Assembly: GCF_003704095.1 (NCBI RefSeq)
Contig: NW_020844757.1
Location: 62,001-126,000 of the forward strand
Length of the DNA stretch: 64,000 bases
Reading direction: 5' to 3'
Source of the DNA: Pocillopora damicornis
Taxonomy: Eukaryota
The notes beneath the pieces are model-generated. The model ran no database searches. It was not told the origin of the DNA and saw nothing but the letters and a program-made list of their open reading frames with translations. Both the position numbers and the translations under genes were made by a program. Below are positions 29,808-32,741 of the stretch, one piece after another (the stretch's first letter is position 1; the number at the start of each line of letters is the position of its first letter).

Positions 29808-32741
29808 TTATCCTCGATAGGCATTCATGTTCCTCCAGTTTCCATACGATGTTCTGTACGCCTGATAAGGGTTCGGGTATTGAGACCTCGCTCGGGCGTA
29901 TTGCTTGTACTGTGCGTAGTAATCATTTGACCGAGACGCAGGGTAATAATTTCGATAACCGTAGGTGGCAGGTGTCATACGTGTTTGCGAGTAGGAGAGT
30001 GGCCTTATGCTATTCAATGCGGCGTTCCGGCCGATACAACACTTGACTGAACACACTGGAGCGCATGTACTCGGGCACGATCCAGGGCAGGTGGGAGCAG
30101 GGGGAGGTGCTGGAGCAGGCATGGGATAGTATACTGGAGATGGGGCTGAGGGAGGAGGTGGACTGCAACAAGTCTGAGAACATGCAGGGAAGCACTTAGC
30201 TGGGCATACTCCGGGACATGTTGGAGGCAGCTGGGGAGGAGGAGGCGGAGGAGGAGGAGGGGGCGGTGGAGGAGTGCAGCAGCTGATGTCACATCTGGGA
30301 AAGCACTTGTATGGTTTGTGGCATGGTAGAGAACACACCTGGTCATGAAGAAGAATGCAGTGTAAGAGAATTCAATTTATGCCATAAACGGATGGAATCG
30401 CATGTAGCAGTGTTTAGTTTCTAGGTTGTGTGAGGCTCGGGAGCAAATGTTCTGTAGATAATGATTACCATATATTGTATAACCAATTAAACGAGCAAAG
30501 AATTTGCTAGCTAGCTGTGGCGGTTGCACCTAGATCACAACCATTGGGAGACAAGAGAAATCACAACGGCATGACAGCAACACAGTATGACAGTCTCCAT
30601 TAACAATGCCAATGCCAATCTGATTCTCACAGTTGGAGTCAATTGAACACGAAACTAAGTGAATGGGATATATCTAATTGGAACTAGCAGAACTTGAAGG
30701 ATGAATGACTCATCAACTTACCGGCACAATCTTCGGGTGCTGTATACATCGGTAGACAACTCTGGCATACTTATAAACCTCAGGGCACATGATAGAATTT
30801 TTCTTTCCCAGAAAAGCACTAGTGGCTGCCACGGAACATTTGCTTTCTCCTTGACACAAATCAAATAACTTCTCATTGATTCTATGTTCGTCCTTCACAC
30901 AATGTCCCTTAGAAGGGAGTACTTTGTGTTGACATGTGTTGTTATCATCTCTGCCGTAAAATGTACTGTATAGGGCGATGCGATCATACCTAGAGAACAC
31001 GAGCAAGGGTTAATTGCAAGATTTAATTCTCACACCAATGACTTTGAAAAAGTAATTTTACCAAAGCTGTATCTCACCACAAGTTTTAGCTTCTCTACGA
31101 AGCTCTTCAGTTTTACAAACTGTCATGAAAATGTGTATGGCACAGCTTTATTGGAAAGCTTAGAAAATTTACTGAAAAAAACACAAATTATCATGTTTGA
31201 AATTTCATGTATTTCCCAAGGAACACTATCGGAAGTGTCACGTAACAAATATTTTTTTTCTTTGGCTTGTTTGCTTGTTTGTCCGCAAGGAGCAAGAGAA
31301 ACATGAAATCGCTGCGCCTTGATAAAGCATAGATATAACAATACATAAACAGTAGTTATATACAAGAAGAAAACAAGTAAAGGTATCGATGAATAAGGAA
31401 GGGAAGGATTAGAATTTGCTGACCCTAGGGTTGTGATAATTACTGATCTTAATTCATTCATTGCACAATGGCATCACATACTTGTTTGGGCATTTGATCT
31501 TCAGTTTATGTCCCTCGCAAGCTACCGCTACCTTCTGTTTCCTCTTCATGTACAAAGGCATCGGGGGAGGCTTGGGTTGGCAACATGATGAGGAACACTG
31601 GGGGTAGCACTCCTTTGGGCAGTCCGATGGACAGGGAGGTGAAGGAGGAGGTGGGGGAGGCTGAGGAGGTGGAGAGGGGGTTGGAGAGGGTTCGGGAACA
31701 GCTTTAGGAGAGGGGGAGGCAGCCGGCGCAAATGCTGCAGGAGAAGGAGGAGCAGCGGGATATTGAAAATATGCGGCAGGTGAGGGCGCCGACTGTGCAG
31801 GCTGTTGGTAGTAATACCGCAGCTGTTGCTGCCGCTGTTGTTGCTGCTGTTGTAGCAGCTGCTCCTGTTGATATATGGACGATCGTTGAGCTGTGTAGCA
31901 ACACATCGCGTTACACCCAGGGTAACACCGAGGAGAGCAATTTCCCGGACAGCTTCCTAAGAAGAAGAAATATATTATGTATCAGTGATAAAAGAAATTC
32001 TAGTAACTGTTTTGAATACTTGTTTTAAATAGCGGGGCAATTGACGGTGTAACTTCTTCGGACCAGAGACATCAGCTCAAAAATCAACACTAACGCTATT
32101 CTATTGATTACCGCCTGGAAGCCTGCAGGATAAAAACAATTATCTAAATTTCGTCAATCAAATTTGTAAATATTCTAAATGGTCATTAAGTCAGTCAGTC
32201 AAACAGTCAGTCAATCAGTCAGTCAGTCAGTCAATCAGTCAGTCCCTCAGTCAGTCCGTCCGTCCGTCAGTCAATCAGTTTGTTAGTCAATCAGGCAGTC
32301 GGTCTCTCTGTCTGTCTGTCAATCAGTCAGTCAGCCAATCACTCAGTCAATCAGTCAATTAGTGAGTCATTCAATTGGTTAGTCAGTCAGTCAGTTAATC
32401 AGTCAGTCAGTCAATCAGTCAGTCAGTCAGTCAGTCCGTCAATCAGTCTGTCCGTCAGTCAGTCGGTCAGTCAGTCAATCAATCAGTCAATCAGTCAGTT
32501 CGTCATTCAATTAGTCAGTCAGTCAGTTGGTCAATCATTCCGTCAGTCGTTCGTTCAGACAGTCGCTTAGTTAATAATTCTGTCAGTTATTTTGTCAGTT
32601 AGTGCGTCACTCACTCACTCACTCATACACTCACTCGATCCATTAGCTTTTTTACTGACTTCTTAATATGAACTTACCAAAGAAGGATCCTTGCGCCGTA
32701 GAAATGAATGAAACAACCGCTATGAAACTTGCCAGCCACAT
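29808..32741 (-). CDS. Secreted nematocyst-type protein, 445 aa: signal peptide, CRD, polyQ/Pro, CRD, SUEL (Gal_lectin/rhamnose-binding) domain, CRD, polyPro, CRD, Pro, CRD, Tyr/Arg-rich tail; exons 32741-32678, 31956-31482, 30989-30722, 30338-29808
   Basis: MWLASFIAVVSFISTAQG signal peptide. CX3CX3CX3CX3CC repeats: CPGNCSPRCYPGCNAMCC, CPSDCPKECYPQCSSSCC, CPGVCPAKCFPACSQTCC, CPGSCPSTCAPVCSVKCC, plus one variant. SUEL motifs ACEG..CP..FYGR..C..C.G..C.V..CP.VYKY..Y.C. Exons total 1338 nt, in frame. Confidence 0.9.
32187..32637. repeat. (TCAG/TCAA/TCCG)n compound tetranucleotide microsatellite in intron 1 of the lectin-CRD gene
   Basis: ~400 bp of agtc/aatc/cgtc units, ending in (TCAC)n. Confidence 0.9.

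What the first reader, a model, noticed from the sequence alone, without database searches (positions are those of the whole stretch)
29808..32741. Collagen-less 'minicollagen' with a SUEL lectin in the middle: five CRDs flanking a sugar-binding domain
Seen: SP-CRD-(Q/Y/P)-CRD-SUEL-CRD-polyP-CRD-CRD-(Y/R tail), with no Gly-X-Y repeat. Established: minicollagens are CRD-polyP-collagen-polyP-CRD, and nematogalectins are collagen plus Gal_lectin without CRDs. Inference: the lectin takes the place of the collagen helix, giving a disulfide-polymerising lectin that could cross-link the capsule's CRD network to glycans such as tubule chondroitin. I do not recognise this as a characterised architecture.
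Basis: partly seen in the sequence, partly recalled or inferred. Interest (0 to 1): 0.7.

Follow-up and report, generated by a model that had tools for sequence, protein, structure and literature searches.

The report
Coral SUEL-lectin stinging-capsule cross-linker
This is a real, spliced coral gene for a collagen-free protein that joins five stinging-capsule cross-linking domains to one SUEL sugar-binding-type domain; it likely works like the known capsule protein NOWA but with a different lectin, and the combination seems not to have been described.

Summary
Four coding exons give a 445-aa protein: hydrophobic leader, 2 CRDs, SUEL domain, 3 CRDs, Tyr/Arg tail, no Gly-X-Y. One contig joins all four exons in 3 of 3 RNA runs. 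Acropora and Nematostella have orthologues with only automatic names.

In a wider unnamed family SUEL follows the leader directly, and the conserved unit is SUEL plus a CRD 9 residues behind it. So the lectin does not stand in a collagen slot. This SUEL groups near nematogalectin SUELs. [quoted passage not shown]

The SUEL fold is sound, but the sugar pocket is altered: Glu, Tyr and Lys are kept, the DPC Asp is lost in 12 of 12. Sugar binding and cnidocyte expression are untested.

Verdict: new variant of a known kind, an apparently undescribed SUEL counterpart of NOWA. Interest 0.42.

The parts
34299..34345 (-). first non-coding 5' exon (upstream end approximate)
   Evidence: joint 34120/34299 in 3 of 4 RNA runs; GT-AG intron
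34076..34120 (-). second non-coding 5' exon
   Evidence: loose ends at 32764 and 34076; GT-AG intron 32764-34075
32678..32741 (-). coding exon 1: start codon and predicted signal peptide
   Evidence: hydropathy peak at aa 3-13; in-frame stops upstream; RNA
31482..31956 (-). coding exon 2: CRD1, Gln/Tyr/Pro linker, CRD2, start of SUEL
31898..31951 (-). CRD1 (aa 24-41), predicted N-type; absent at this place in the Nematostella orthologue
   Evidence: typing rule from PMC4863159
31580..31633 (-). CRD2 (aa 130-147), predicted N-type, 20 residues before the first SUEL Cys in 4 of 4 hexacoral-type proteins
31541..31555 (-). conserved L-Y/F-x-K-R motif before SUEL; possible convertase site, or a short helix packed on the domain
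   Evidence: KR in P0012, P0007, P0006, P0008 and P0009; QR in P0024; helix in model
30746..31534 (-). SUEL / Gal_lectin domain (aa about 163-261, split by the 492-nt intron), 8 Cys, YGR kept, DPC Asp lost, 4-residue loop insertion
   Evidence: Pfam; model pLDDT 82.5; Foldseek and VIA matches to SUL-I, CSL3, latrophilin lectin domains; residues
30722..30989 (-). coding exon 3: most of SUEL and the Q-H-P junction
29808..30338 (-). coding exon 4: CRD3, polyPro, CRD4, CRD5, basic tail, stop
30276..30335 (-). CRD3 (aa 271-290), non-canonical spacing, 9 residues behind SUEL; identical in Acropora P0006 and in P0007
30234..30272 (-). 13-proline run, length polymorphic (6 residues shorter in P0012)
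30165..30218 (-). CRD4 (aa 310-327); Val at position 4 here, Ala or Thr in relatives
30036..30089 (-). CRD5 (aa 353-370), predicted N-type
29811..30035 (-). 75-aa Tyr/Arg-rich tail, net charge +10, ending in Gly
   Evidence: measured on P0012
28719..29807 (-). 3' UTR; AATAAA at 28924 and 28724
   Evidence: RNA contigs reach 28943 and 28719

Best explanation
The gene encodes a spliced 445-residue protein with five minicollagen-type cysteine-rich domains, one SUEL domain and no collagen, which likely enters the developing stinging capsule and likely works as a NOWA-like multivalent lectin cross-linker. Inferred steps: (1) the leader sends it through ER and Golgi into the cnidocyst vesicle; (2) the CRDs reshuffle from internal to intermolecular disulfides; each is predicted N-type (one link), but five per chain give a branched polymer with itself, minicollagens or other CRD proteins; (3) the polymer presents many SUEL domains, so weak single-site binding to a capsule glycan becomes avid; (4) the pocket has lost the Asp that classical rhamnose lectins use and carries Lys there, so the ligand is more likely an anionic glycan such as tubule chondroitin than rhamnose; (5) the result would tie the disulfide network to the tubule glycan layer. 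In origin it is likely a nematogalectin-related SUEL that acquired CRDs, not a minicollagen that swapped its helix.
For: Shown: gene model and splicing; SUEL fold; orthologues in five Acropora species and Nematostella; SUEL is 81-84% identical to two coral-type orthologues and 65% to Nematostella, against 47-52% and 24% for the Gln/Pro linker; wider family with SUEL-CRD gap of 9 residues in 9 of 11 complete cases by pattern, and in a tenth (P0187) by eye; SUEL+CRD rows form one group beside nematogalectin SUELs in both trees; Glu7, Tyr27, Lys86 equivalents kept in 4 of 4 hexacoral-type proteins (residues from PMC3269628). From papers (passages): CRD proteins are disulfide-linked into the capsule (PMC4863159, PMC6910907); Nematostella minicollagens, nematogalectins and NOWAs are cnidocyte genes (PMC12549020); NOWA oligomers are proposed to zip the tube through lectin-chondroitin contacts (PMC10014300). 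Circumstantial: a second collagen-free CRD gene (CAP-SEA-CRD) lies 8.6 kb away. Lead only: a 536-aa, pI 8.47 SUEL protein shared by four medusozoan nematocyst proteomes (PMC12945647 supplement, cluster545) fits the family in size and charge; its sequence was not seen.
Against: No expression by cell type and no localisation for this gene or an orthologue was found. Sugar binding is untested, and the pocket departs from the canonical one: Asp79 equivalent absent in 12 of 12 family members against present in 106 of 156 other SUEL domains; Asn74 equivalent in 2 of 12 against 97 of 156; Glu7 is Gln in 7 of 8 members outside the hexacoral type. Several top structural matches are latrophilin lectin domains solved bound to proteins. 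The basic charge (+6 to +7) is only about 1.3 SD above other SUEL domains (mean +0.3, SD 5.3), so the anionic-ligand step is weak. Support for the SUEL+CRD clade fell from 95/92 (bootstrap not settled) to 82/72. The chondroitin zipper is itself a hypothesis in the NOWA paper. CRD3 was poorly modelled (pLDDT 51-60).
Confidence: 0.5

Rival explanations
1. It is a CRD-polymerising cnidocyst protein, but its SUEL domain binds a protein partner, or is a rigid spacer, rather than a sugar.
For: DPC Asp lost in 12 of 12, no acidic residue in that loop in the coral or Nematostella proteins, 4-5 residue insertion, Glu7 to Gln in 7 of 8 distant members. Latrophilin SUEL domains are solved in complexes with teneurin and TOL-1.
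Against: Tyr27 and Lys86 equivalents are kept in 12 of 12 and Glu7 in 4 of 4 hexacoral-type proteins. Nematogalectin-type SUELs also lack the Asp in 6 of 7 rows and are still regarded as sugar-binding (PMC4195985).
Confidence: 0.25
2. It is not a stinging-capsule protein but a secreted mucus, matrix or immune lectin that uses CRDs to form a disulfide gel or agglutinate microbes.
For: SUEL lectins agglutinate bacteria in other animals (PMC3269628). The neighbouring SUEL paralogue has a mucin-like Ser/Thr tail. No cell-type data were seen.
Against: In the papers read, CRD proteins with a tested location are cnidocyte products (PMC12549020, PMC6910907, PMC10014300). The SUEL groups with nematogalectin SUELs, apart from the classical rhamnose-lectin-like rows.
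Confidence: 0.12
3. One reading: it is a minicollagen derivative in which SUEL replaced the collagen helix and took over its place as the central, oligomerising unit.
For: In corals and Nematostella SUEL does lie between CRDs, and polyproline and a basic tail are present as in minicollagens.
Against: SUEL comes first in 4 of 4 full-length members of the sister subfamily. Long polyproline runs lie outside the flanking CRDs, with only a short Pro motif in the 20-residue linker before SUEL and a 9-residue linker after it. No propeptide between leader and CRD1. CRD number before SUEL varies 0, 1, 2, as expected from CRD accretion.
Confidence: 0.08

Closest known systems
NOWA (Hydra; four NOWA genes named in Nematostella)
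   Same: Collagen-free lectin with several minicollagen CRDs; N-type CRDs; proposed disulfide oligomer that binds tubule chondroitin (PMC10014300, PMC4863159). Weak sequence matches of the CRDs to NOWA CRD structures 2hm3, 2hm4, 2hm6 (E 0.19-0.57).
   Different: Lectin is SUEL, not C-type; no CAP domain; 5 CRDs on both sides of the lectin rather than 8 at the C-terminus.
Nematogalectins and NSP3
   Same: One SUEL/Gal_lectin domain of the same branch; basic tail; NSP3 also lacks collagen (PMC6134521).
   Different: No Gly-X-Y; has CRDs, which are not described for these; YGR rather than WGR and a longer loop; separate contig from this genome's nematogalectin cluster on C940.
Minicollagens
   Same: CX3CX3CX3CX3CC domains, polyproline, basic tail, leader.
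   Different: No collagen, no propeptide before the first CRD, a lectin domain, different order of polyproline and CRD.
CPP-1 and Cnidoin (Hydra)
   Same: Collagen-free capsule proteins with CRDs around Pro-rich or low-complexity linkers (PMC6910907).
   Different: They are not described with a folded lectin domain.
Rhamnose-binding lectins (CSL3, SUL-I) and latrophilin lectin domain
   Same: Fold: VIA Z 12.8, rmsd 1.6 A over 97 residues to CSL3; 8 Cys; YGR; KY.
   Different: Single domain with CRDs; DPC motif lost; ligand unknown.

Membership tests
Minicollagen | central Gly-X-Y domain of about 12-16 triplets | tested here: not met
   no run of 3 triplets; none of 165 proteins held had 6 triplets
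Minicollagen | N- and C-terminal CRDs | tested here: met
   5 CRDs, 4 canonical
Minicollagen | propeptide between signal peptide and first CRD | tested here: not met
   CRD1 begins at aa 24; dibasic pairs only at 159-161 and 242; canonical order from PMC4195985
Minicollagen | polyproline between CRD and central domain | tested here: not met
   long Pro runs lie outside CRD2 and CRD3; only a short Pro motif before SUEL
Nematogalectin | Gly-X-Y domain before the lectin | tested here: not met
Nematogalectin | Gal_lectin (PF02140) domain | tested here: met
Nematogalectin | lectin domain falls inside the nematogalectin clade | tested here: not met
   beside, not inside, the clade holding L003-L005 (99/92); about 100 columns only
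NOWA | C-type lectin domain | tested here: not met
   Pfam finds only SUEL in P0012
NOWA | CAP domain (Hydra NOWA) | tested here: not met
   feature from PMC3627010
NOWA | several minicollagen CRDs of N-type | tested here: met
   0 of 4 regular CRDs carry both Val/Ile4 and Pro14 (rule in PMC4863159); sequence rule only
NOWA | cnidocyte expression and tubule localisation | not testable with these tools
   only bulk RNA contigs available
SUEL / rhamnose-binding lectin domain | eight Cys and the RBL fold | tested here: met
SUEL / rhamnose-binding lectin domain | YGR motif | tested here: met
SUEL / rhamnose-binding lectin domain | DPC motif with the sugar-binding Asp | tested here: not met
   Asp absent in 12 of 12 family members; Cys and KY kept
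SUEL / rhamnose-binding lectin domain | binds L-rhamnose or D-galactose | not testable with these tools
   needs a binding assay

The most novel reading that the evidence does not exclude
This is an overlooked core stinging-capsule protein family present across cnidarians: a second, independently built NOWA with a SUEL domain remodelled to bind anionic tubule glycan. In corals it sits beside a CAP-SEA-CRD gene, so that lectin and CAP functions joined in Hydra NOWA come here from two neighbouring genes that co-polymerise through their CRDs. The medusozoan proteome protein Hma2.217630 / XP_057294392.1 would be its unrecognised orthologue.
Probability: 0.2. Interest if true: 0.62.

Novelty: new variant of a known kind. 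Interest (0 to 1): 0.42.

Why it matters
How the nematocyst tubule invaginates and how its protein network is tied to the chondroitin scaffold is open; NOWA is the one lectin-CRD protein I found proposed for it. A second lectin-CRD family with an unrelated lectin fold would show that this design arose twice by domain shuffling, and it gives a concrete knockdown target in Nematostella (XP_048578831.1), at present mislabelled as a Mediator-subunit-like protein. It also adds a natural self-cross-linking lectin to the CRD biomaterial toolkit. The principle is not new, so a specialist would find it useful rather than startling.

Tried and rejected
Full-length AlphaFold2 model: mean pLDDT 38, not used. 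Three-copy complex of the SUEL region: no answer, score 0.00 in two runs, alignment not used, no controls folded; no evidence either way. ESM Atlas: P0008 gave only generic SUEL clusters, best feature score 0.85; P0028 and P0204 are not held there. Naming the organisms of the SUEL-first relatives failed: no source names for 8 of 8 SUEL+CRD clusters, apart from one spurious label, and none, so 'pan-cnidarian' is not shown. NVE3843, a cnidocyte-specific Gal-lectin gene (PMC6161364): could not be mapped to a sequence; its neighbours NVE3839, 3844 and 3845 (NEP-5) point to the nematogalectin cluster, so I do not count it as the orthologue. Nematostella matrisome supplements: no entry under SUEL, Gal_Lectin, PF02140 or the accession; four nematogalectins, five NOWA-type and three minicollagen-like entries were listed by name, their sequences not seen, and supplement 4 was too large to read. 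Short family motifs were not found in two papers' supplements. Hwang 2010 and Balasubramanian 2012 are not held. The paper reader closed, so the Stylophora cell-atlas supplements (PMC8162421, search listing only) were not seen; they may hold the cell type of the orthologue. Convertase cleavage at the KR before SUEL: kept as a possibility only, since P0024 has QR and the model makes the motif a short helix. A genome-wide CRD pattern search could not be run; a scan of 72.9 kb flanking the window on the same contig found no further CRD, SUEL or collagen exon. Earlier scan findings: none.

Full report
1. The observation. The minus strand holds four coding exons (32741-32678, 31956-31482, 30989-30722, 30338-29808) with GT-AG introns, giving 445 residues without a stop. 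The order is leader, CRD1, Gln/Tyr/Pro linker, CRD2, SUEL, CRD3, 13 prolines, CRD4, CRD5, Tyr/Arg tail. CRD3 has a 5-residue second gap. The 38 cysteines are exactly 30 in CRDs and 8 in SUEL, and there is no Gly-X-Y run. Pfam gives SUEL_Lectin at E 4.5e-12. Shuffles give 0.00005 CRD matches per copy (20,000 shuffles). In 3 of 3 RNA runs from 3 studies a single contig joins all four exons; the fourth run laid, of unrecorded kind, covers the introns unspliced. Two non-coding exons lie upstream. The organism is a stony coral by inference from its relatives.

2. Orthologues. The same order occurs in five Acropora species (P0006, P0013-P0016; the P0016 model lacks the start of SUEL) and in an unnamed coral-type protein P0007. 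Nematostella XP_048578831.1 (P0008) has one CRD before SUEL and four after. Database names are automatic and uninformative (proline-rich protein 12-like, WAS/WASL-interacting, Mediator subunit 15-like). Conservation peaks in SUEL and CRD3: 81-84% and 100% to the coral-type proteins, 65% and 65% to Nematostella, against 47-52% and 24% for the first linker.

3. A wider family. A search of 1.84 billion representatives with the Nematostella core gave 484 hits, of which the best 150 were listed. Among the 165 proteins then held, 25 had a CRD and none had collagen. Six of them (P0028, P0043, P0055, P0058, P0068, P0085) put SUEL first, followed by 1-8 CRDs; one search added five more. Several are cut at the N-terminus, but four full-length ones (P0043, P0186, P0187, P0204) have a leader and then SUEL with no CRD before it. 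The gap from the last SUEL Cys to the next CRD is 9 residues in 9 of 11 complete cases; in P0187 a shortened CRD that my pattern skipped also sits at 9, and P0202 was not checked. These records carry no organism names. In this coral's genome the best match to P0187 is this gene, which fits orthology. Two trees of the SUEL domain alone, each with a random 35 or 30 of the other SUEL domains as background, put the SUEL+CRD rows in one group: 12 rows at 95/92 (bootstrap not settled) and 14 rows at only 82/72. Next to them lie the neighbouring SUEL paralogue and then nematogalectin-type domains (93/84; 98/96, there with one unrelated background row inside). In one search I labelled four collagen-free rows as nematogalectin-type; only L003-L005, where collagen exons were seen. 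With about 100 columns and a midpoint root, the order of events is inferred, not shown.

4. Structure and sugar site. The CRD2-SUEL-CRD3 core folds at mean pLDDT 82.5, CRD3 poorly. It matches SUL-I, CSL3 and latrophilin lectin domains (Foldseek E 4e-8 to 7e-7; VIA Z 12.8, rmsd 1.6 A over 97 residues to CSL3). CSL3 binds sugar through Glu7, Tyr27, Asn74, Asp79, Gly83 and Lys86 (PMC3269628, passages). Mapped by cysteine spacing, the coral protein keeps Glu, Tyr and Lys. It has Ser for Asn74, Lys for Asp79, and a 4-residue insertion. Asp79 is absent in 12 of 12 family members and present in 106 of 156 other SUEL domains. The domain is basic (+7), but within 1.3 SD of the background. Classical rhamnose binding is therefore doubtful; an anionic glycan or a protein partner are both open. 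By the position 4 and 14 rule (PMC4863159, first part and passages), 0 of 4 regular CRDs are C-type, so each is predicted to make one intermolecular link.

5. Neighbourhood. Upstream on the same strand is a SUEL gene with a Ser/Thr-rich tail, spliced in RNA. On the opposite strand a nine-exon gene joins CAP, an acidic stretch, a probable SEA domain (E 0.0005 on one exon, under Pfam's cut-off) and four CRDs in 799 residues; RNA contigs in 2 of 4 runs bridge CAP and CRD exons. No further CRD exon was found in 72.9 kb of the contig outside the window.

6. Mechanism. Most likely the protein is secreted into the developing cnidocyst, polymerises through its CRDs, and presents SUEL domains multivalently to a capsule glycan, tying the disulfide network to the tubule (0.5). 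Rivals: SUEL binds protein or is a spacer (0.25); the protein works outside cnidocysts (0.12); SUEL replaced the collagen of a minicollagen (0.08). Gene structure, splicing, fold and conservation are shown. Secretion, localisation, polymerisation and ligand are inferred.

7. Known systems. CPP-1 and Cnidoin are collagen-free CRD proteins (PMC6910907, passages). NSP3 is a collagen-free Gal_lectin protein (PMC6134521, passages and supplements). The protein fails membership of minicollagens, nematogalectins and NOWA, but likely works like NOWA. I found no description of SUEL plus CRD in the searches, in passages of PMC4195985, PMC6161364, PMC3627010, PMC2687796, PMC4989536 and PMC12945647, or in passages, section 7 and supplement searches of PMC12549020. 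Two key papers (Hwang 2010, Balasubramanian 2012) were not held, and the Stylophora atlas supplements were not seen, so a table-level listing may exist. One candidate: cluster545 in the PMC12945647 supplement, a structural SUEL protein shared by Hydra, Hydractinia, Rhopilema and Sanderia nematocyst proteomes (536 aa, 58.8 kDa, pI 8.47, one peptide in Hydractinia). It is not NSP3 and fits the SUEL-first members in size and charge, but I did not see its sequence.

8. Verdict. A real, conserved, apparently undescribed domain combination; a new variant of the lectin-plus-CRD capsule proteins. Interest 0.42; boldest reading 0.2 likely, 0.62 if true.

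Noticed in passing
window 41375-47317 (+): One nine-exon gene, 799 aa: leader, CAP domain, long acidic stretch, probable SEA domain, four CRDs (first non-canonical), basic tail; no collagen and no C-type lectin seen. NOWA-like in joining CAP to CRDs, though PMC3627010 says Nematostella CAP proteins are mostly single-domain. RNA contigs bridge CAP and CRD exons in 2 of 4 runs.
   Followed up: partly
window about 36451-39500 (-): SUEL domain with Ser/Thr-rich mucin-like tail, four exons in RNA; its SUEL is the sister group of the SUEL+CRD family; relatives in Montipora (P0041) and Nematostella (P0092).
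   Followed up: partly
window 34345-32742 (-): The 114-nt 5' UTR of the finding's gene is built from two extra exons and holds four upstream ATGs.
   Followed up: no
window 29808-29813 (-) and relatives: The protein ends in Gly, as do P0006, P0007, P0028, P0085, P0202 and P0204; P0043 ends G-K-K. These look like amidation signals (recalled rule). SUEL-first members share a C-terminal R/K-x-Y-x-x-L-L-x-x-Y/F-R-like motif.
   Followed up: no
G000:C940 19594-55620 (L003, L004, L005, L008, L023, L024): Cluster of at least five SUEL exons, four with nearby collagen exons: the nematogalectin cluster; L008 shows no collagen nearby.
   Followed up: partly
P0026, P0030, P0048: A third SUEL type, sister to the neighbour gene's, seen only as single-exon gene calls and not among this genome's matches.
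   Followed up: no
window 7111-18607 (-), 24467-24832 (-), 1491-1811 (+), 52216-54559 (-): Exons that look like MICAL, a secreted phospholipase A2 (broken by an assembly gap), Cdc37 and eIF2B epsilon; names recalled from the ORF translations, not tested.
   Followed up: no
window 32185-32640; 37740-38790; 43176-43251: A long TCAG-type simple repeat in coding intron 1, and short dispersed repeats with very high contig depth in the neighbour genes' introns.
   Followed up: no
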